DNA of 64,000 nucleotides from an uncultured Gemmatimonadaceae bacterium (lineage in GTDB: Bacteria; Gemmatimonadota; Gemmatimonadetes; Gemmatimonadales; Gemmatimonadaceae). The position numbers were made by a program, and so were the translations under genes. Positions within the stretch are counted from its first letter, which is position 1. Every line of letters starts with the position of its first letter. The notes under the pieces were generated by a model. The model saw only the letters and a list, made by a program, of their open reading frames with translations. It ran no database searches and was not told the DNA's origin. The stretch spans positions 1,760,001 through 1,824,000 of the forward strand of contig CAVUDW010000003.1 in the NCBI GenBank assembly GCA_963740355.1. Reading direction: 5' to 3'. Of the stretch, positions 1,022-7,959 are shown piece by piece.

Positions 1022-2311
1022 TCAGTCCGCCATCGCCTCGCTGTGCCGCGTCTCCGGCATCACCACGTACACCACCAGCGACATCGCAATCAGGACGGTC
1101 ACGTACCAGTAGAACCAGCTCTCGTGCCCCATGTTCTTGAACCAGAGCGCCAAGTACTCCGCGGTGCCACCAAACACCGAGACCGCGATCGCGTACGGGA
1201 ACGCCACGCCCAGCGCCCGCACATTGGTCGGAAACAGCTCGGCCTTCACCACCGCGTTGATCGCTGTGTAGCCGCTGACCACCAGCAGCGCGAGCGTCAG
1301 CAACGACAGCGCCGCGGCAAAACTGCCGGCGGTCGCCAGGCGCGTCAGCAGCGGCAACGTGCCCAAAGTGCCCACCACACCGAACGCGATCAGCACCGGC
1401 CGACGGCCGATTCGGTCCGAGATGGCGCCCACGATCGGCTGAACACACATGAAGATCGCCAGCGAGGCAGCCGACACGAGCGTCGCGGCGGACTTGCTGA
1501 AGCCCGCTGTGTTGACCAGAAACTTCTGCGCGTAGGTGGTGAAGGTGTAGAACGCCACCGTCCCGCCGGCCGTCAGTCCGATCACAGTCGCAATCGCCCG
1601 CGGATGCGCCAGCAGGCTGGCCAGCGCCGACGCGCGCGTCTCATTCGGTGCCAGCGACCTGGTGAAGGCGCCGGTCTCGGCGATCCCTCGACGCACGGCC
1701 ACCGCCACCAGCGCACAGGCCGCGCCGATCAGGAACGGAATCCGCCAGCCCCACGCCTCCAGCGCCGCGGTGTCGAGAAAGCGCTGCAGCACCAACAACA
1801 CGCCGAGTGCGAGCAGCTGGCCCATGATCAGCGTCACGTACTGGAAGCTCGACCAGAAGCCGCGGTGCTGCTTGCCAGCCATCTCGCTCAGGTAGGTCGC
1901 GCTGGCGCCGTATTCACCACCCACGCTCACGCCCTGCATCATTCGCGCGAACACCAGGATCGCCGGCGCCGCCACGCCAATCGTGGCATACGACGGCGTG
2001 ATCGCGATCAGCAGCGAGCCGGCGCACATCAAGAGCACCGAGAATGTCAGCGCCGCGCGACGCCCGTGCCGGTCGGCGTAACGGCCCATCACCCAGCCAC
2101 CGATCGGGCGCATCAGGAATCCGACCGCGAAGACCGCCGCCGCATTCAGCAGCTGCACCGTCTGATCCGCTGGCGGAAAGAACGCCTTCGAGAAGTAGAG
2201 CGAGAACGCCGAGTAGACGTACCAGTCGTACCACTCGACGAGATTGCCGACGGAGCCGCCAATGATGGAGCGGAGTCGGTGCGAGGCTGTGGGCACAGCG
2301 GAGGATGCCAT
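1022..2311 (-). CDS. kgtP: MFS metabolite:H+ symporter, alpha-ketoglutarate permease-like
   Basis: GNLVEWYDWYVY, GFLMRPIGG, DRHGRR, GGEYG and KAELFP motifs; about 12 hydrophobic segments. Confidence 0.85.
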   Translation of the reverse strand: MASSAVPTASHRLRSIIGGSVGNLVEWYDWYVYSAFSLYFSKAFFPPADQTVQLLNAAAVFAVGFLMRPIGGWVMGRYADRHGRRAALTFSVLLMCAGSLLIAITPSYATIGVAAPAILVFARMMQGVSVGGEYGASATYLSEMAGKQHRGFWSSFQYVTLIMGQLLALGVLLVLQRFLDTAALEAWGWRIPFLIGAACALVAVAVRRGIAETGAFTRSLAPNETRASALASLLAHPRAIATVIGLTAGGTVAFYTFTTYAQKFLVNTAGFSKSAATLVSAASLAIFMCVQPIVGAISDRIGRRPVLIAFGVVGTLGTLPLLTRLATAGSFAAALSLLTLALLVVSGYTAINAVVKAELFPTNVRALGVAFPYAIAVSVFGGTAEYLALWFKNMGHESWFYWYVTVLIAMSLVVYVVMPETRHSEAMAD

Positions 2312-2334
2312 GCCCCCAACCTATCAGCCGTGCA

Positions 2335-3408
2335 TCAGGCCGCCGAGGCAGTCGTCAGCAAGGGTGCCGATGTATGTCCAACCAGCGGCATCACCTGCTC
2401 GGCAAACCGCTCCATCTCCTCCAGCTGCGGGCTGCACTGCAGCAGCAGCAAGCCGACGCCGGCGGCTTCCAGCTCGCGAATCCGATCCGCGACCTGCTCC
2501 GGTGTGCCCACCAGACCCGCCCGCAGCCCGCGATTCGACACCGAGTAGTCGTGCAGTGACACCTGCTGCTCGAGCTGCGTGTTACCGATCCAGTCCTGAT
2601 AGTTGTGGTAGCCCGGTGACCCAGGCTGCACGTTCGTGATCCGCTCCAGCTCGCGCTGCGCCTCGGCCTCCGTGTTGCGCACGATCACATAGGCAGCCAT
2701 GCCGAACTGCATCGCACGACCGTCCACCTGCTCGCGACGTGCACGCATGTCCGCGATCTTCGGCGCCACGCGCGACGCGGGATCACCGTGCATCACGTAC
2801 GCATCACACTGCGATGCGATCAGCGACTTGCCGGCTTCCGATTCGCCGCCGGCGTACAACACCGGATGCGGTCGTGACCAGCTGGAGACGGGCTTCGGCT
2901 GCACGATCAGTTCATCCACCGAGTAGAACCTGCCCTTGTACGTCAATGACGGCTCCGTCCACGCGCCCTTCAGCACATCCAGCCACTCCGCCGTGCGTGC
3001 ATACCGATCGTCATGTTCATCGAAGGTGCTGCCATAGCGACGCGCCTCATCCTTCCACCAGCTCGAGACCACGTTCAACGACAAGCGACCATTGCTGATG
3101 TGATCGATGTTGGCGGCCTGCTTCGCCAGCGTGGCCGGATGATGGAACGTCGGCCGCACCGCCACCATCAGCTCGAGCCGCGTCGTCACGGCTGCCAGCG
3201 CCGCGGCAGTCGACCAGGCATCCAGCGCCGGCGCCTCGACCCCCTTGATGTCATTCAAGAACAACTCAGCGATCAGCGTGAGGTCGAATCCGATCTCCTC
3301 GCTGCGACGCGCCAGTCGCTGCACGTACGGCCAGGTCGCCGTCATCCCTTCGTCGGGCACGTTGCGCAGCCACCCGCCAAAGACAGGCAACCAATATCCG
3401 AATCGCAT
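2335..3408 (-). CDS. LLM-class flavin-dependent monooxygenase (SfnG/SsuD-like)
   Basis: FGYWLP start; AAVTTRLELMVAVRP, IDHISNGRLSLNVV, AGGES and LVGTPEQVADRI motifs. Confidence 0.9.
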   Translation of the reverse strand: MRFGYWLPVFGGWLRNVPDEGMTATWPYVQRLARRSEEIGFDLTLIAELFLNDIKGVEAPALDAWSTAAALAAVTTRLELMVAVRPTFHHPATLAKQAANIDHISNGRLSLNVVSSWWKDEARRYGSTFDEHDDRYARTAEWLDVLKGAWTEPSLTYKGRFYSVDELIVQPKPVSSWSRPHPVLYAGGESEAGKSLIASQCDAYVMHGDPASRVAPKIADMRARREQVDGRAMQFGMAAYVIVRNTEAEAQRELERITNVQPGSPGYHNYQDWIGNTQLEQQVSLHDYSVSNRGLRAGLVGTPEQVADRIRELEAAGVGLLLLQCSPQLEEMERFAEQVMPLVGHTSAPLLTTASAA

Positions 3409-4382
3409 CAGCCCACCAACGCCGGCGCGCCGGCGATTCGTGCCTCGAGGTAATCCACCAGGCGCACGAAGGGATCGAAGCCGATCACGTTCGGGGCGTC
3501 GGCCACGAAGTTCGACAATGCATTGATGTCGTAGAAATAGTGCTGCCCATCACGATCGTCGACGAGATATTCGATGCCACCGACATCGATGTTCGCTGCC
3601 CGTGAAATCCGCTCCACCTGGGCAATGATCTCAGCCGGTGGATGCGCAACTTCGACTCGCATACCCGTCTTCGGCGCATCCACTGCGCAGGCACCACGCA
3701 CCAACTCCACACCGTTGGTGGTCTGGCAGGCATCGGCCGGGCAGAGGTCGAAGGAATTCTGCGGCGGATAGACATTGATGGCGTACAGATAGTGCCCGCC
3801 CAGCGTCTCCACGCGCGTGATGCGGCCATCGCGCAGTGGTGCCGACTCCTGCACCAGCGCCGTGCTGTCCACGCCCAGGTCGACCGTGCCAGCGGCCACG
3901 GCCTCGGCGAGCGCGTCGGCTGTCTCGTAGCGGACGATCCCGGCCCCGCTGCCGCCGATGTTCGCCTTCACCAGCACTGGGAAACGGAACCCCTTCGCGG
4001 CATCGAGCGCTCGCGACGGATGATTGATCACACGCGCCTTCGGATACGGCAGGCCCAGTTCGCGAAGCAGGTCGAGCTGCGTGGCCTTCGACAATTCGTA
4101 GGCATACGCACCAGCGCCGTTCACGACCGGGACGCCGATGCTCTCGAGATGGCGCAGCCAGTGCAACGTGTGGAACGTGGCCTGAGCGTGCCCGCGCAAA
4201 TACGCCGACGGGCTGGCCCGATTGAACACCAGCGAATACGGCGATTCGCTTTCGGACGGATCGAAGACATGTGCGGCGGCGTCGAGACGTTCATACGCGA
4301 TGCCGCGACGCTCGAGCTCAGCAAACAGCGGGCGAAACCAGTCGGGATGTTCGTGGTAGATCGCAATCGGCAGGCGGGACAT
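3408..4382 (-). CDS. ATP-grasp ligase (RimK/glutathione synthetase-like)
   Basis: VPVVNG, ELSK, PVLVKANIGGSGAGI, VQE and GIEY...DINALSNF motifs; stop overlaps the LLM start. Confidence 0.85.
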   Translation of the reverse strand: MSRLPIAIYHEHPDWFRPLFAELERRGIAYERLDAAAHVFDPSESESPYSLVFNRASPSAYLRGHAQATFHTLHWLRHLESIGVPVVNGAGAYAYELSKATQLDLLRELGLPYPKARVINHPSRALDAAKGFRFPVLVKANIGGSGAGIVRYETADALAEAVAAGTVDLGVDSTALVQESAPLRDGRITRVETLGGHYLYAINVYPPQNSFDLCPADACQTTNGVELVRGACAVDAPKTGMRVEVAHPPAEIIAQVERISRAANIDVGGIEYLVDDRDGQHYFYDINALSNFVADAPNVIGFDPFVRLVDYLEARIAGAPALVG

Positions 4383-4420
4383 GACGCAACCTCGGAAACG
4401 GTGGTGCCCCCACATACGAC

Positions 4421-4448
4421 AAAGCCCGGCGCAATGAAGCCGCCGGGC
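4421..4448 (-). terminator. Leader terminator hairpin (riboswitch expression platform)
   Basis: Minus strand GCCCGGCG-gcttcattg-CGCCGGGC-TTT, about 40 nt upstream of the ATP-grasp start; U tract is short. Confidence 0.65.
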
Positions 4449-4510
4449 GTTCGCGTTTTAGCTCATTGTTTTGCGTGGCGGCAAGAGGCGGCAAATGACC
4501 ACGGCGAACG
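4448..4510 (-). ncRNA. SAM-II (SAM-alpha-type) riboswitch aptamer
   Basis: Minus strand CGTGG-TCATTTG-CCGCCTC-TTGC-CG-CCACG-CAAAA-CAATGA-GCTAAAA; P1 CGTGG/CCACG, pseudoknot TCATT/AATGA, conserved TTGC and GCTAAA; possible outer helix CGTTCGC/GCGAACG. Confidence 0.8.
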
Positions 4511-4520
4511 ATTGTGATTG

Positions 4521-4551
4521 ATACTTAGCGCAACTCGCGAGTCGCTGTCAA
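4521..4551 (-). promoter_or_regulatory. Candidate sigma70 promoter of the riboswitch leader
   Basis: Perfect TTGACA (4551-4546) then CTAAGTAT 17-18 nt downstream, just ahead of the aptamer. Confidence 0.5.
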
Positions 4552-5463: not shown

Positions 5464-6543
5464 TCAATCGCCGAACGAGATCCCGGTCGCGCGGGCGGTC
5501 AGCACGATGTCGTGCTTGGGGTCGACGCGCTTCACCTCACGCAACGCCTCGACGATCGGAATCGTCACGATGTTGGGCGAATGCAGCGCCACCATGTGGC
5601 CCCACTTCCCTTCCGCCACCGCACGCACCGCTTCGCCACCGAAGCGCGTCGCCAACAAGCGGTCGTAGCCAGTCGGCTGGCCACCGCGCTGCAGATGCCC
5701 GAGCACCATCGAGCGCGCCTCCTTGCCGGTCTTCTCCTGGAGCATCCGCGCCAGCGGGCCGGCAATGCCGCCCATGCGCTTCGCCTGACCAGGCATCGAC
5801 GGGCCCATGATCGACTCTTCCCCGCCGATCGGCACCGCGCCTTCAGCCACCACCACGATCGAGAAGCGACGACCGGCCAGATCGCGTGAGCGAATCTTCT
5901 TCACCACCGTCTCGACGTCGAACGGAATCTCGGGGATCAGCACCACATCGGCGCTTGCGGCGACGCCAGAGTGAAGCGCGATGAAGCCAGCGTCGCGACC
6001 CATCACTTCCAGCACCATCACGCGATCATGACTCTCAGCCGTGGTGTGCAACTTGTCGATCGCCTCGATCGCCGTCGTGACGGCGGTGTCGAAGCCGAAG
6101 GTGGTGATCGTTCCACTGACGTCGTTGTCGATCGTCTTTGGAACCGCCACCATCTTCATCCCCTTCTCCACCAGGCGCTGTGCGATCGAGAGCGAGCCGT
6201 CACCACCGATGGTGATGATCGCGTCGATGCCGAGCGCCTTCGAGTTCGCCACGACTTCATCGGAACGATCGACTTCGCGATACGTGCCGTCGCCATTCGG
6301 GACGGGGTAGGCGAACGGATTGCCTCGATTGGTGGTACGGAGGATCGTGCCACCGAGATGGCCGATACCAGACACCATGTCGCGGGTCATCGGGACGACA
6401 TCGTCCTCGCCGAGGAGACCGTAGTAACCGCGCTTGATACCAAGCACTTCCCAGCCGCGATCGAGTGCGGAGAGGACGGCAGCGCGGATGACAGCGTTCA
6501 GGCCCGGGGCGTCACCGCCACCGGTGGAGAGGGCAATACGCAT
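5464..6543 (-). CDS. pfkA: 6-phosphofructokinase
   Basis: TGGGDAPGLNAVIRA, GGTIL, IGGDGS, PKTIDND, EVMGR and LGHLQRGG motifs; true start at ATG 6543. Confidence 0.95.
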   Translation of the reverse strand: MRIALSTGGGDAPGLNAVIRAAVLSALDRGWEVLGIKRGYYGLLGEDDVVPMTRDMVSGIGHLGGTILRTTNRGNPFAYPVPNGDGTYREVDRSDEVVANSKALGIDAIITIGGDGSLSIAQRLVEKGMKMVAVPKTIDNDVSGTITTFGFDTAVTTAIEAIDKLHTTAESHDRVMVLEVMGRDAGFIALHSGVAASADVVLIPEIPFDVETVVKKIRSRDLAGRRFSIVVVAEGAVPIGGEESIMGPSMPGQAKRMGGIAGPLARMLQEKTGKEARSMVLGHLQRGGQPTGYDRLLATRFGGEAVRAVAEGKWGHMVALHSPNIVTIPIVEALREVKRVDPKHDIVLTARATGISFGD

Positions 6544-6627
6544 GACGTAGGTGTTGGGGTGTGGAGTCAGCCAAGGAAAGTAACCGGCCCGGGCCATGTT
6601 CCCACGGGTCAGCATAGAATTCTTGTC

Positions 6628-7959
6628 ATGCGCCTTCTCTCCCTCGCCCTGCTCCCCCTCGCCGCCGGCCTCCTGTCCGCGCAGGCGCCCCTCACGGCAC
6701 CGCTTCCGGCGCCCCTGCTCCGGGACCTCGACACCCGTATCGCGAGCGTCACGCCCAAGGTGGTGGCCTGGCGGCGCGACCTGCATGAGCATCCCGAGCT
6801 CAGCAATACGGAGACGCGCACCGGCGCGGTCGTGGCGGCCCACCTCAAGGCCCTCGGCCTCGAGGTGCGAACCAACGTCGGTGGTTCGAACAGCGTCATC
6901 GGAATCCTGCGCGGCGGCAAGCCAGGCCCCAGCGTCGCACTCCGAGCCGACATGGACGCACTGCCCGTCACCGAGCAGACCGGCCTGCCGTTCGCCTCGA
7001 AGGTGACCACGCAGTACAACGGGCAGACGGTCGGCGTCATGCACGCCTGCGGGCACGATGCGCACACCGCGATCCTGATGGGCGTCGCCGAAGTGCTCAC
7101 CGGCATGAAGGCCACGCTGCCGGGCACGGTGACCTTCCTCTTCCAGGCGGCCGAAGAGTCGGCGCCGAACGGCGGCGCCAAGGCGATGATCGAAGCGGGC
7201 GCCCTCGACAATCCGAAGGTGGAGGCGGTCTACGGCCTGCACACCTGGCCTGGGCCCACCGGCACCGTCTCCACTCGCAGCGGCGGCATGATGGCCAGCG
7301 GCGACAACTGGCGCGTGGTCATCCACGGCAAGCAGGCGCATGGCGCGCAGCCGTGGCGCAGCGTCGATCCAATCGTGATCGGCGCACAGATCGTCACGGG
7401 CCTGCAGACGATCGTGAGCCGCAACATCGATCTCACAGCCGGACCGGCGGTGGTGACGGTCGGCGCCTTCATCGGTGGCGTGCGCGAAAACATCATCCCC
7501 GACAGCGCGGTGATGTTCGGCACCTTCCGCACATTCAATGAAAAGGCCCGACAGACCGCAGCGGACCAGATCCGGGCCATCGCCACGCAGTACGCCGTCG
7601 CGGGCGGTGCCACGGCCACCGTGACGATCAGCATGGGCTACCCGACGACATCGAACGATGCCCGCTGGTTCGGTCGTGCCACCGGTGTGCTTCGCAACAC
7701 GCTCGGCGAGGCCGACGTGCTGGAAAGTGCGCCGTCGATGCCGGCCGAGGATTTCTCGCTCTTCCTCAATCGTGTCCCGGGGCTGTTCTTCTTCCTTGGC
7801 GTCACGCCCAAGGGCAAGGATCCGCTCAGCATGCCTGCCAATCATTCGCCGATGTACGACGTCGATGAGGCGTCGTTTCCCACGGGGGTGAAGGCGCTCA
7901 GCGCGCTGGCGCTCGACGCACTGCTGCGCGGCGTTCCAGCCATGGGGCCCATGAAGTGA
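6628..7959 (+). CDS. M20 family amidohydrolase/peptidase with signal peptide
   Basis: RRDLHEHPELS, RADMDALP, MHACGHDAH, FQAAEE and AEDFS motifs. Confidence 0.92.
   Translation: MRLLSLALLPLAAGLLSAQAPLTAPLPAPLLRDLDTRIASVTPKVVAWRRDLHEHPELSNTETRTGAVVAAHLKALGLEVRTNVGGSNSVIGILRGGKPGPSVALRADMDALPVTEQTGLPFASKVTTQYNGQTVGVMHACGHDAHTAILMGVAEVLTGMKATLPGTVTFLFQAAEESAPNGGAKAMIEAGALDNPKVEAVYGLHTWPGPTGTVSTRSGGMMASGDNWRVVIHGKQAHGAQPWRSVDPIVIGAQIVTGLQTIVSRNIDLTAGPAVVTVGAFIGGVRENIIPDSAVMFGTFRTFNEKARQTAADQIRAIATQYAVAGGATATVTISMGYPTTSNDARWFGRATGVLRNTLGEADVLESAPSMPAEDFSLFLNRVPGLFFFLGVTPKGKDPLSMPANHSPMYDVDEASFPTGVKALSALALDALLRGVPAMGPMK

What the first reader, a model, noticed from the sequence alone, without database searches (positions are those of the whole stretch)
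1022..4551. SAM-II riboswitch-controlled operon: ATP-grasp ligase + SfnG/SsuD-like monooxygenase (+ MFS transporter), a candidate uncharacterised methionine/organosulfur pathway
Seen: TTGACA promoter, SAM-II-like aptamer (4510-4448), terminator hairpin, then an ATP-grasp gene whose stop overlaps the start of an LLM monooxygenase, then a KgtP-like transporter 23 nt later. Established: SAM riboswitches mark Met/SAM supply genes (metX, metZ, metK, transporters); SsuD/SfnG/MsuD-type LLMs cleave C-S bonds with FMNH2; RimK-like ATP-grasp enzymes form amide bonds. Inference: neither enzyme is a canonical Met gene, so the pair may be a SAM-repressed route to Met or reduced/methylated sulfur, for example ligation to activate or protect a sulfur compound followed by oxidative cleavage. 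No flavin reductase is adjacent.
Basis: partly seen in the sequence, partly recalled or inferred. Interest (0 to 1): 0.85.

Follow-up and report, generated by a model that had tools for sequence, protein, structure and literature searches.

The report
SAM-gated ATP-grasp plus flavin monooxygenase operon
A real SAM-sensing RNA switch in a Gemmatimonadaceae genome turns off a conserved two-enzyme module of unknown chemistry that other bacteria control with different sulfur-amino-acid sensors, marking it as an uncharacterised part of sulfur metabolism.

Summary
On the minus strand lie a conserved promoter, a SAM-II aptamer (4512-4441), a terminator hairpin, then an ATP-grasp gene, an LLM gene (1-nt overlap) and an MFS gene (23-nt gap). 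The aptamer scores 33.0 bits, below Rfam's cut-off of 36. It is still genuine. The same genome has SAM-II before metX (62.1 bits) and the O-acetylhomoserine sulfhydrylase gene (32.4 bits). 58 of 78 related loci carry the same aptamer plus terminator.

New here: other Gemmatimonadota put the same gene pair behind a short leader ORF packed with Cys and Met codons plus a terminator. Five loci have SAM-II and this ORF in series. A Bacillus cereus-group genome has an S-box (SAM-I) riboswitch before LLM then ATP-grasp.

So the pair belongs to sulfur-amino-acid supply. Its chemistry is unknown. The LLM falls in the orphan 3RAO subfamily and lacks both the SfnG and the SsuD/MsuD substrate motifs. The ATP-grasp folds like ArgX/LysX/RimK. 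My best guess is ATP-dependent amide conjugation of an amino-acid-like organosulfur compound, then oxygenolytic C-S cleavage.

The parts
4546..4551 (-). -35-like hexamer TTGACA
   Evidence: Read. TTGAC is conserved in 57 of 59 orthologous leaders, in 54 of them 43-49 nt upstream of the aptamer; background is 105 of 2000 windows. The tool's promoter scan did not call it.
4521..4527 (-). candidate -10 element TAAGTAT, 18 nt after the -35
   Evidence: Read. TAnnnT-type hexamers (TAACTA, TAAGAT, TACGAT and similar) sit at the same spacing in the relatives printed. This was judged by eye and has no statistics.
4441..4512 (-). SAM-II (RF00521) aptamer: P1 4503-4498 with 4479-4474; pseudoknot strands CUUGC 4485-4481 and GCUAAAA 4462-4456
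   Evidence: 33.0 bits, E 5.3e-6, full model length; 33 bits, E 2.5e-5 in the whole-genome search. P1 and pseudoknot pair in 531 of 531 cells across 59 leaders, with 2 compensatory P1 pairs. The pseudoknot assignment rests on my recall of the published SAM-II structure.
4416..4448 (-). intrinsic terminator: 8-bp GC stem, 9-nt loop (4448-4424), then TTTGTCGT (4423-4416)
   Evidence: -19.2 kcal/mol. An equivalent hairpin plus T-rich tail occurs in 59 of 59 SAM-II leaders, median -19.9 kcal/mol. Background is 91 of 400 windows, or 27 of 400 at -15 or lower.
3408..4382 (-). ATP-grasp ligase, 324 aa (the ORF is open from ATG 4415)
   Evidence: Pfam CPSase_L_D2 26.4 bits, LysX_preATP_grasp 24.8, RimK 18.9. 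AlphaFold pLDDT 87.7. Closest folds are ArgX/LysX, TM 0.75-0.87. The family has 289 representatives at E<=1e-30, and every named member looked up is 'hypothetical' or a generic ATP-grasp.
2335..3408 (-). luciferase-like, FMNH2-dependent (class C) monooxygenase of the 3RAO/8VW6 subfamily, 357 aa
   Evidence: Pfam Bac_luciferase 216.6 bits. PDB 3RAO 441 bits, 8VW6 394, SfnG 172, MsuD 144, SsuD 120. Below the NCBIfam cut-offs for SfnG and SsuD.
1022..2311 (-). MFS metabolite:H+ symporter (KgtP/ProP-type), 429 aa, 23 nt after the LLM
   Evidence: PRK10406 493.5 bits (cut-off 550) and TIGR00883 419.8 bits (cut-off 443.45). It follows the pair in only 11 of 80 related loci.

Best explanation
Regulation. 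A sigma-70-type promoter drives a leader whose SAM-II aptamer binds SAM when SAM is plentiful. This lets the downstream GC hairpin and U-tract terminate transcription before the genes (an OFF switch). When SAM falls, RNA polymerase reads through into ATP-grasp, LLM and MFS.

Function. The ATP-grasp/LLM pair is a conserved two-enzyme module switched on by shortage of sulfur amino acids. I think it recovers usable sulfur (sulfite, or cysteine/homocysteine) from an amino-acid-like organosulfur compound. The MFS symporter would import that compound in this clade. The ArgX/LysX/RimK-like ligase would use ATP to join it through an amide bond to an amino-acid partner. The flavin monooxygenase, fed FMNH2 by a reductase encoded elsewhere, would then cleave a C-S bond.

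Status of each step. Shown by computation: the aptamer, the terminator, the operon structure, co-conservation of the pair, and repeated linkage to SAM and Cys/Met sensors. Inferred: SAM binding, the termination mechanism, the substrate, the order of the two reactions, and C-S cleavage itself.

My odds: SAM-repressed operon about 0.9. Role in sulfur-amino-acid supply about 0.75. Ligate-then-cleave chemistry about 0.3.
For: SAM-II is real:
- Full-length CM match.
- The same genome has SAM-II before metX (62.1 bits) and the O-acetylhomoserine sulfhydrylase gene (32.4 bits; TIGR01326 642.9 bits, over its cut-off).
- The aptamer motif occurs in 58 of 78 related loci with an intact 5' end. All 58 regex hits lie in the leader and none elsewhere on either strand of the 80 loci.
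- L073 and L076 reach the gathering score.
- 531 of 531 P1/pseudoknot cells pair, with 2 compensatory pairs.
- A terminator follows in 59 of 59 leaders.

Independent sensors on the same pair:
- Cys/Met-rich leader ORFs. 13 of 18 SAM-II-less loci with enough upstream DNA have an ORF with at least 6 Cys+Met. 9 of the 11 most Cys/Met-dense ORFs among 10,070 sit 117-136 nt before the ATP-grasp start. A terminator follows in 21 of 21.
- 5 loci carry SAM-II and the leader ORF in tandem.
- Cys-run leaders occur in distant metagenome loci L088, L091 and L092.
- S-box at 100.5 bits, then LLM (58% identical), then ATP-grasp (30%, E 7e-33) in Bacillus sp. N5-665.

Coupling of the pair:
- The LLM is directly downstream in 72 of 80 loci and in 7 of 13 distant loci.
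- The genes overlap both here and in Bacillus, where the order is swapped.

Amino-acid-like substrate:
- ArgX/LysX/RimK fold.
- Spirosoma cluster of ATP-grasp (56.5%), two amino-acid permeases and an SsuD-type LLM carrying the W/R/H sulfonate motif.
- An MHS symporter here.
- Polar and charged residues replace SfnG's methyl cage in the LLM (with residues from PMC11588060).
Against: - The window's aptamer is 3 bits under Rfam's gathering score.
- The aptamer is almost invariant among relatives, so covariation is thin: 4 cells in 2 pairs.
- I identified no antiterminator for the SAM-II leader.
- For the leader-ORF type, the candidate antiterminator is no better than random same-locus segments: median -15.9 against -13.2 kcal/mol, and only 5 of 21 loci stand out.
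- The LLM lacks both known substrate motifs. SfnG R55, Q53, Y60 and Y296 are changed and W285 is deleted. MsuD W195 becomes His and R225 becomes Ala, and the R296 loop is absent. C-S cleavage is therefore inferred from family only.
- Coupling is not obligatory. L005, L033, L036 and L077 lack the LLM although downstream DNA is present, and L016 keeps only a remnant. L085-L087 and L090, the B. mycoides plasmid and the Pediococcus plasmids have the ATP-grasp without it.
- The downstream amidase, present in 18 loci, appears to carry a signal peptide (judged by eye), so it probably does not deprotect a cytoplasmic intermediate.
- No flavin reductase is in the operon.
- There are no binding, expression or enzyme data.
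Confidence: 0.6

Rival explanations
1. The ATP-grasp ligates methionine (or cysteine/homocysteine) itself to a partner amino acid, as LdmS makes Asp-Met in Staphylococcus. The LLM then modifies that conjugate. On this reading the module makes or buffers a sulfur-amino-acid derivative (storage, export or signalling) and does not scavenge sulfur.
For: LdmS is an ATP-grasp L-amino-acid ligase specific for Asp and Met. Its operon sits behind CodY/CymR sites or an S-box (PMC9486568: abstract and passages read). Several relatives keep the ATP-grasp without any LLM.
Against: LdmS was not among the PDB sequence matches at E<=0.01, so the two are not close relatives. The LdmS authors themselves note that consuming Met under Met limitation is paradoxical. 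The tight pairing with a C-S-cleaving type of LLM (72 of 80 loci) and the Cys-dominated leader ORFs fit supply better than consumption.
Confidence: 0.15
2. The LLM is an ordinary sulfonate or sulfone monooxygenase acting on small non-amino substrates (alkanesulfonates, methanesulfonate, DMSO2) and releasing sulfite. The ATP-grasp acts on something else, such as a product or an unrelated step, and is only co-regulated.
For: The best characterised relatives are SfnG, MsuD and SsuD. A 'predicted sulfonate monooxygenase (OB3078)' is listed as a novel SAM-regulated gene in Bacillales in supplement file 7 of PMC3766115 (one passage seen). In Spirosoma a canonical SsuD-type LLM takes the place of the 3RAO-type.
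Against: The SfnG and MsuD substrate-binding residues are not conserved, and the scores are below both NCBIfam cut-offs. Overlapping genes in two phyla with swapped order, plus co-conservation down to 44-46% ATP-grasp identity, argue for one pathway.
Confidence: 0.15
3. The SAM-II-like sequence is a chance or decayed match and the operon is not SAM-regulated.
For: It scores below the Rfam gathering score. The aptamer is nearly invariant among relatives, so little covariation is available.
Against: The conservation, position specificity, terminator pairing and same-genome metX/metY elements listed above.
Confidence: 0.03

Closest known systems
SAM-II riboswitch (Rfam RF00521 SAM_alpha), as found upstream of metX/metA/metZ-type genes
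   Same: Full-length match to the covariance model, with the P1 helix, the U-rich strand and the GCUAAAA tail. The same genome uses it on metX and the O-acetylhomoserine sulfhydrylase gene.
   Different: The host is Gemmatimonadota. The score here is 3 bits under the gathering cut-off. The controlled genes are an ATP-grasp and an LLM, not a canonical Met enzyme. Every copy is followed by an intrinsic terminator (59 of 59). In 5 relatives it stands in series with a leader-peptide attenuator.
Polycysteine leader sORF attenuators of mycobacteria (Canestrari et al., bioRxiv 10.1101/834739: abstract and section 9 read)
   Same: A short upstream ORF with consecutive Cys codons in front of sulfur-metabolism operons. 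Ribosome stalling is proposed as the cysteine sensor.
   Different: In the relatives here the ORFs mix Cys and Met codons, for example MTSAQTMCCCMCMCCLCCQPASEALGVRM in L051. They are followed by an intrinsic terminator (21 of 21), not an RBS-sequestering duplex. They are not obviously leaderless and occur in a different phylum. The window itself does not have one.
B. subtilis S-alkylcysteine / S-(2-succino)cysteine salvage (N-acylation, flavin monooxygenase C-S cleavage, deacylation). Recalled from memory and from the earlier scan note e1-2755095; not read here.
   Same: The logic of masking the amino group of a sulfur amino acid, cleaving C-S with an FMNH2-dependent LLM-type oxygenase, and repressing the pathway when Cys/Met is sufficient.
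   Different: An ATP-grasp ligase would take the place of an acetyltransferase. The LLM belongs to another subfamily (3RAO). No cytoplasmic deacylase is in the operon.
LdmS/HmrA of Staphylococcus (PMC9486568)
   Same: An ATP-grasp amino-acid ligase in an operon behind an S-box or CymR/CodY sites. [quoted passage not shown]
   Different: It is not a detectable sequence relative. Its partner is an M20D peptidase, not an LLM.
SfnG, MsuD and SsuD two-component sulfone/sulfonate monooxygenases
   Same: Class C LLM TIM-barrel fold. FMN-phosphate residues are kept (SfnG H136, Y140, S189 align with H132, Y136, S190). The oxygen-site Asn is kept (N116 aligns with N112).
   Different: The substrate residues are not conserved and the protein scores below the family cut-offs. 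The nearest structures, 3RAO and 8VW6, have no assigned substrate. For 3RAO this comes from passages in PMC11588060 and PMC8795539. A literature search for 8VW6 found no paper.

Membership tests
SAM-II riboswitch (RF00521) | Significant full-length match to the covariance model | tested here: met
   33.0 bits, E 5.3e-6, model positions 1-79 of 79. E 2.5e-5 in the whole-genome search.
SAM-II riboswitch (RF00521) | Rfam curators' gathering score of 36 bits (a database threshold, not a structural feature) | tested here: not met
   33.0 bits here. Orthologous leaders L073 (41.8) and L076 (38.6) pass. The same-genome metX element scores 62.1, and the metY element at 32.4 also falls short.
SAM-II riboswitch (RF00521) | P1 helix maintained, with compensatory changes | tested here: met
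   6 pairs, 100% paired in 59 sequences. 2 pairs show changes on both sides (CG to AU once, GC to CG three times). 0-1 of 500 shuffles reach the observed values.
SAM-II riboswitch (RF00521) | Pseudoknot between the loop strand (CUUGC) and the 3' tail (GCUAAAA) | tested here: inconclusive
   The 3 pairs tested are invariant in 59 of 59 sequences. They are complementary but offer no covariation. The pairing scheme is recalled from the published structure.
SAM-II riboswitch (RF00521) | Binds SAM and discriminates against SAH | not testable with these tools
   Needs in-line probing or ITC.
ATP-grasp superfamily | ATP-grasp fold with the ATP-binding Lys, the Gly-rich loop and the Mg-binding acidic/Asn residues | tested here: met
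   pLDDT 87.7. Foldseek probability 1.00 to ArgX, LysX, RimK and Ddl. K139, G143/G144/G146, D285 and N287 are at least 90% conserved and E271 is invariant across 35 diverse members. The functional roles of these residues are assigned from general knowledge.
LysX/ArgX amino-group-carrier ligases | Family-level sequence score, and a LysW-type carrier protein as substrate | tested here: not met
   TIGR02144 scores 32 bits against a cut-off of 275.6. 15-20% identity to the solved structures. No small carrier gene was noted among the recurrent neighbours in the 80 loci. A genome-wide LysW search was not done.
RimK alpha-L-glutamate ligases | Family-level sequence score | tested here: not met
   TIGR00768 scores 50.6 bits against a cut-off of 143.4. 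Pfam RimK scores 18.9 against 21.
SfnG dimethylsulfone monooxygenase | NCBIfam equivalog cut-off, and the DMSO2-binding residues R55, W121, N297 plus the cage W11, Y60, F267, W285, Y296 and Q53 (PMC11588060) | tested here: not met
   260.4 bits against a cut-off of 382.95. From the alignment: W11, W121 and N297 are kept and F267 becomes Tyr. R55 becomes Leu, Q53 Ala, Y60 Lys and Y296 Ser, and W285 falls in a deletion.
SsuD/MsuD alkanesulfonate monooxygenases | NCBIfam cut-off, and the sulfonate-binding motif W195, R225, R296, S/A299 (PMC8234197) | tested here: not met
   183.5 bits against a cut-off of 518.2. W195 becomes His207 and R225 becomes Ala. R296 lies in a 15-residue loop that is absent here, although an Arg follows the aligned Asn.
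Class C two-component FMN-dependent LLM | Bac_luciferase TIM barrel with the FMN-phosphate motif | tested here: met
   PF00296 scores 216.6 bits. SfnG H136, Y140 and S189 align with H132, Y136 and S190.
Leader-peptide transcription attenuator (in relatives, not in the window) | Short ORF with runs of regulatory codons, followed by a terminator | tested here: met
   9 of the 11 top Cys/Met-dense ORFs among 10,070 sit at the conserved position, and a terminator follows in 21 of 21.
Leader-peptide transcription attenuator (in relatives, not in the window) | Antiterminator alternative that is masked by a ribosome at the stop codon | tested here: inconclusive
   A pairing of -10 kcal/mol or better exists in 21 of 21 loci, and in the core group it lies 9-23 nt before the stop. 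Random same-locus segments do about as well, and only 5 of 21 loci stand out.
LdmS L-aspartate-L-methionine ligase | Detectable sequence homology to the solved enzyme | tested here: not met
   It is not among the 17 PDB sequences matched at E<=0.01. That the LdmS crystal structure is deposited is taken from PMC9486568.

The most novel reading that the evidence does not exclude
The ATP-grasp/3RAO-type LLM pair is an undescribed two-enzyme route. It would free assimilable sulfur (or cysteine/homocysteine) from an amino-acid-like organosulfur compound by way of an ATP-made amide conjugate. Evolution has wired it at least three separate times to sulfur-amino-acid sensors: SAM-II, SAM-I, and a previously undescribed terminator-type leader peptide that reads Cys and Met codons together. 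In some Gemmatimonadota the leader peptide stands in series with SAM-II, forming a two-input gate.
Probability: 0.4. Interest if true: 0.8.

Novelty: new variant of a known kind. Interest (0 to 1): 0.68.

Why it matters
Riboswitches and leader peptides report what a cell thinks a gene is for. Here three or four unrelated sensors of SAM, cysteine and methionine, in at least two phyla, point at the same orphan enzyme pair. The pair includes a protein whose crystal structure (3RAO) has had no assigned function since it was deposited in 2011.

That turns [quoted passage not shown] into a defined, testable gap in sulfur metabolism. The ATP-grasp is present in 93 of 401 sampled Gemmatimonadota genomes (this tally includes one unpublished genome, G157, among the positives). 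The pair is also present in a B. cereus-group genome.

The work also adds SAM-II to the regulatory repertoire seen in Gemmatimonadota. And it gives a second bacterial lineage, after mycobacteria, in which Cys-codon leader ORFs appear to sense sulfur status. Here they include Met codons and use a terminator read-out.

Tried and rejected
- Rfam at gathering thresholds on the whole window found nothing. The aptamer appeared only in the permissive local scan.
- The tool's promoter/terminator scan called neither element in the leader.
- My first strict aptamer regex found the motif in only 13 of 79 loci and had to be relaxed.
- My first gene caller picked shadow ORFs. I replaced it with clustering.
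- The antiterminator energy test for the leader-ORF type did not beat random segments.
- Complex prediction for LLM plus ATP-grasp gave no answer: score 0.00, no verdict.
- No RNA holder is listed for this stretch. Only partial DNA holders were found, best share 0.28, and none was laid.
- Rfam found no riboswitch at gathering in the 13 distant metagenome loci, and none at E<=0.01 in the Spirosoma or B. mycoides loci.
- The Pediococcus leader is a sub-threshold T-box match (69.7 against 93 bits). By my reading its specifier is not a Cys or Met codon, so it gives no support.
- The poly-Met sORF in the window's own genome (C3:143211) is an (ATG)n repeat between convergent genes, not a leader. No other convincing Cys/Met leader ORF stood out in that genome.
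- Literature searches for the pair and for 8VW6 found no paper describing it. Only a supplement line in PMC3766115 mentions an S-box-regulated 'predicted sulfonate monooxygenase (OB3078)'. I did not check whether OB3078 is an orthologue.
- Earlier-scan look-ups by sequence found nothing.

Full report
WHAT IS THERE

On the minus strand of the window, three ORFs run head to tail. An ATP-grasp protein is open from 4415, with a likely start at ATG 4382 preceded by GAGG, and ends at 3408. A luciferase-like monooxygenase (LLM) spans 3408-2335. An MFS transporter spans 2311-1022. The ATP-grasp stop and the LLM start share one base, and the MFS gene starts 23 nt after the LLM stop.

Pfam and NCBIfam confirm the three families but place none of the proteins in a named functional family:

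| Protein | Family model | Bits | Cut-off |
|---|---|---|---|
| ATP-grasp | rimK_fam | 50.6 | 143.4 |
| LLM | SfnG | 260.4 | 383 |
| LLM | SsuD | 183.5 | 518 |
| MFS | KgtP-type PRK10406 | 493.5 | 550 |

Titles of 76 of the 80 best related loci name Gemmatimonadota, mostly Gemmatimonadaceae.

IS THE RIBOSWITCH REAL?

Rfam at gathering thresholds finds nothing in the window. A permissive scan of the leader finds SAM_alpha (SAM-II) at 4512-4441, full model length, 33.0 bits against a cut-off of 36, E 5.3e-6. Four lines of evidence make it genuine.

1. Same-genome regulon. A whole-genome search gives four hits. One of 62.1 bits lies before a MetX-type homoserine acyltransferase ORF. This one scores 33.0. 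One of 32.4 bits lies before an O-acetylhomoserine sulfhydrylase gene (TIGR01326 642.9 bits, over its cut-off). The fourth, at 16.3 bits, I regard as noise. A canonical methionine gene therefore carries an equally sub-threshold copy.

2. Conservation and specificity. Among the 80 related loci, 78 have an intact 5' end, and a relaxed aptamer motif is present upstream of the ATP-grasp gene in 58 of them, mostly 72-94 nt before the start. All 58 motif hits on both strands of all 80 loci lie in that leader and none lies elsewhere. Two of these leaders pass the Rfam cut-off: L073 at 41.8 bits and L076 at 38.6 bits.

3. Structure. In an alignment of 59 leaders, the six P1 pairs and three pseudoknot pairs are formed in 531 of 531 cells. 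Two P1 pairs show compensatory changes. At most 1 of 500 shuffles reaches the observed values. The aptamer is otherwise almost invariant, so covariation is thin.

4. Expression platform. Every one of the 59 leaders has a GC hairpin with a T-rich tail within 85 nt of the aptamer, median -19.9 kcal/mol. Of 400 background windows, 91 pass the same test, and 27 pass at -15 kcal/mol or lower. In the window the hairpin is 4448-4424 (-19.2 kcal/mol) followed by TTTGTCGT. The tool's own terminator scan missed it because the loop has 9 nt.

A TTGAC -35 element is conserved in 57 of 59 leaders, in 54 of them 43-49 nt before the aptamer. Background is 105 of 2000 windows.

A SECOND, UNEXPECTED SENSOR ON THE SAME GENES

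Twenty loci lack the SAM-II motif. Two of these have too little upstream DNA to judge. In the other 18 the leader holds a short ORF. In 13 of them the ORF has at least 6 Cys+Met residues. Examples:

- L028: MTLAQAICCCCMCCLMCQPTPEASGVRM
- L051: MTSAQTMCCCMCMCCLCCQPASEALGVRM
- L060: MCVCMCMCPMCQPTCEALGARI

Three more loci have 4-5 Cys+Met, and in two (L052, L072) I found none.

As a control I listed all 10,070 ORFs of 12-60 codons on both strands of the 80 loci. Eleven have at least 8 Cys+Met in a 15-residue window, and nine of those eleven sit 117-136 nt upstream of the ATP-grasp start. The other two are poly-Cys runs that look like simple repeats to me; I did not check the DNA.

Five loci (L047, L048, L068, L073, L076) have SAM-II with its own terminator, followed by such an ORF with a second terminator. 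All 21 ORF-type leaders have a terminator starting 13-43 nt after the stop codon, at -16.6 to -31.2 kcal/mol.

This is the anatomy of a leader-peptide attenuator with Cys and Met as the regulatory codons. One element is not established. A candidate antiterminator pairing exists in all 21 loci, but random segments from the same loci pair about as well.

BEYOND THE PHYLUM

The ATP-grasp family has 2098 representatives at E<=1e-3 and 289 at E<=1e-30. The ten distant members I looked up come from records labelled Chloroflexota, Myxococcales, Peregrinibacteria and a green-alga transcriptome. Each is unnamed, named 'hypothetical', or carries a generic ATP-grasp name.

In 13 metagenome loci fetched with a 49%-identical member, the LLM is directly downstream in 7, with ATP-grasp identity of 44-65% and LLM identity of 65-73%. 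Two further loci end at the contig edge and four lack the LLM. Three of these distant leaders again hold Cys-run ORFs followed by terminators: L088 ...CVMCCPR..., L091 ...VMCCPR..., L092 ...TCTCCCPT....

In the record of Bacillus sp. N5-665, an S-box (SAM-I) riboswitch of 100.5 bits lies 83 nt before an LLM that is 58% identical to ours. Over the stretches printed, this LLM is nearly identical by eye to the B. cereus protein of PDB 3RAO. It overlaps by 8 nt an ATP-grasp that aligns full-length to ours at 30% identity, E 7e-33. The pair is the same, the order is swapped, and the SAM riboswitch class is different.

On a Spirosoma oryzicola plasmid, a 56.5%-identical ATP-grasp is followed on the same strand by two amino-acid permeases and an LLM. 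That LLM is only 24% identical to ours. It carries Trp, Arg and His at the positions of MsuD's W195, R225 and H227 (read against and PMC8234197). So a canonical sulfonate-type enzyme stands in the place of the 3RAO-type.

Within Gemmatimonadota the ATP-grasp was found in 93 of 401 sampled genomes, 46 of 93 in the window's own family (one positive, G157, is unpublished).

THE ENZYMES

ATP-grasp. The model is confident (pLDDT 87.7, pTM 0.87), apart from a loop at 217-237. It is closest to ArgX and LysX (TM 0.75-0.87), then RimK and Ddl, at 15-20% identity. Those enzymes join the alpha-amino group of an amino acid to a Glu carboxylate. The nucleotide- and Mg-binding residues are conserved.

LLM. 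The best solved relatives are 3RAO (441 bits) and 8VW6 (394 bits). These are far ahead of SfnG (172), MsuD (144) and SsuD (120). 3RAO is an uncharacterised structural-genomics entry (passages in PMC11588060 and PMC8795539). Reading the published substrate residues through the alignments gives:

| Enzyme | Residues kept | Residues changed or lost |
|---|---|---|
| SfnG | FMN-phosphate residues; oxygen-site Asn; W11; W121; N297 | R55 to Leu; Q53 to Ala; Y60 to Lys; Y296 to Ser; W285 deleted; F267 to Tyr (conservative) |
| MsuD | none of the sulfonate motif | W195 to His; R225 to Ala; R296 loop missing |

The hydrophobic methyl cage is replaced by polar and charged side chains within the subfamily motif AEL-x-LND-x-KGV. 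This suggests a larger, charged substrate.

Accessory genes. The MFS gene follows the pair only in the window's subclade (11 of 80 loci). Another subclade has an amidase-signature gene downstream on the same strand (18 loci). In L036 and L077 this amidase directly follows the ATP-grasp with no LLM, and in L016 it follows a 60-residue LLM remnant. Its N-terminus looks like a Sec signal peptide (by eye), so it probably works outside the cytoplasm. One metagenomic protein fuses a partial FGE-sulfatase/EgtB-type domain (36.5 bits) to the ATP-grasp. The own genome has two PF01613 and two PF03358 flavin-reductase candidates, all far from the operon.

HOW IT MOST LIKELY WORKS

Shown by computation:
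- a promoter, a SAM-II aptamer and a terminator precede a three-gene operon;
- the first two genes are a conserved unit;
- that unit has been placed under SAM-II, SAM-I and Cys/Met leader ORFs in different lineages.

Inferred:
- SAM binding stabilises the pseudoknot and allows termination;
- low SAM allows read-through;
- the products supply sulfur for cysteine and methionine.

In this genome methionine synthesis itself (metX and the sulfhydrylase) is under SAM-II. A sulfur-releasing module under the same switch is therefore coherent.

The substrate is most likely amino-acid-like. Supporting this are the ArgX/LysX-type ligase, the amino-acid permeases in Spirosoma, the MHS symporter here and the charged LLM pocket. 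It is also likely to be sulfonated, oxidised or S-alkylated, given the family of the LLM and the SsuD-type replacement in Spirosoma.

The 'ligate, then cleave' order is by analogy with N-acylation-dependent S-alkylcysteine salvage in B. subtilis, which I recall but did not read here. It is the weakest step.

COMPARISON AND NOVELTY

- The riboswitch is a new member of a known class, in an unusual host and on unusual genes.
- The Cys/Met leader ORFs resemble the polycysteine sORFs of mycobacteria (10.1101/834739: abstract and section 9 read). They differ in mixing Met codons and in being coupled to terminators.
- LdmS/HmrA of Staphylococcus (PMC9486568: abstract and passages read) is a functional parallel but not a detectable relative.
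- The only prior trace I found of the LLM's SAM link is one supplement line in PMC3766115. No search found the ATP-grasp/LLM pair described.
I did not test it. It shows the same regulatory logic on other DNA.

VERDICT

The regulation is ordinary in kind. What it points to is an orphan, widespread two-enzyme module in sulfur-amino-acid metabolism, one member of which has a solved structure. That module is worth bench work.

Noticed in passing
window 5464-7845 (-): A 793-aa ORF with a phosphofructokinase domain only at residues 436-742 (PF00365, 333 bits). About 430 N-terminal residues have no family match. In close relatives the region gives two separate PFK-cluster ORFs.
   Followed up: no
window about 3640-3760 (-); ATP-grasp residues about 210-240: A Cys triad (CPADxC ... 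C) brackets the only low-confidence loop of the model (residues 217-237). It is also present in the 30%-identical Bacillus homologue (FELCPADAC...FCP). It may be a metal or redox site.
   Followed up: no
L010, L036, L054, L070, L075 and 13 other loci, downstream of the pair: An amidase-signature gene (PF01425; PRK08137 409-423 bits, below its cut-off of 534) lies on the same strand after the LLM. In L036 and L077 it directly follows the ATP-grasp, and in L016 it follows an LLM remnant. Its N-terminus looks like a Sec signal peptide.
   Followed up: partly
L016:6703-6831 (+): A repetitive Cys-rich sORF (...CFCRCFCRCFCRCF...) lies directly upstream of the amidase, in the locus where the LLM is reduced to a 60-residue remnant.
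   Followed up: no
L100 (Pediococcus acidilactici plasmid NZ_CP035153) 3795-6918: A sub-threshold T-box-like leader (69.7 against 93 bits) precedes a thioredoxin-domain gene, a dicarboxylate/amino-acid:cation symporter and a 31%-identical ATP-grasp annotated 'alpha-L-glutamate ligase'. The same block occurs on five Pediococcus plasmids.
   Followed up: partly
P0217 (metagenomic protein, 567 aa): Its N-terminus matches part of the FGE-sulfatase/EgtB-type domain (PF03781, 36.5 bits, profile positions 44-118 of 255) and is fused to this ATP-grasp family. This is a single sequence, so it could be an assembly or gene-calling artefact.
   Followed up: no
P0224: A 36%-identical full-length member of the ATP-grasp family comes from a green-alga transcriptome (Chloroparvula japonica, MMETSP/EukProt).
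   Followed up: no
own genome C3:143211-143255 (+), outside the window: An (ATG)n-type repeat reads as MMMMMMMVMIMMAP. It lies between convergent genes next to a bidirectional terminator and is not a leader peptide.
   Followed up: yes
window 4449-4455 (-) and alignment A1 columns 67-72: The hexamer CGCGAA between the aptamer tail and the terminator is nearly invariant across the 59 leaders. In the fold it extends the terminator stem by pairing with the start of the U-tract. An ACAA(C/T) box just before the aptamer is also conserved and may mark the transcription start.
   Followed up: no
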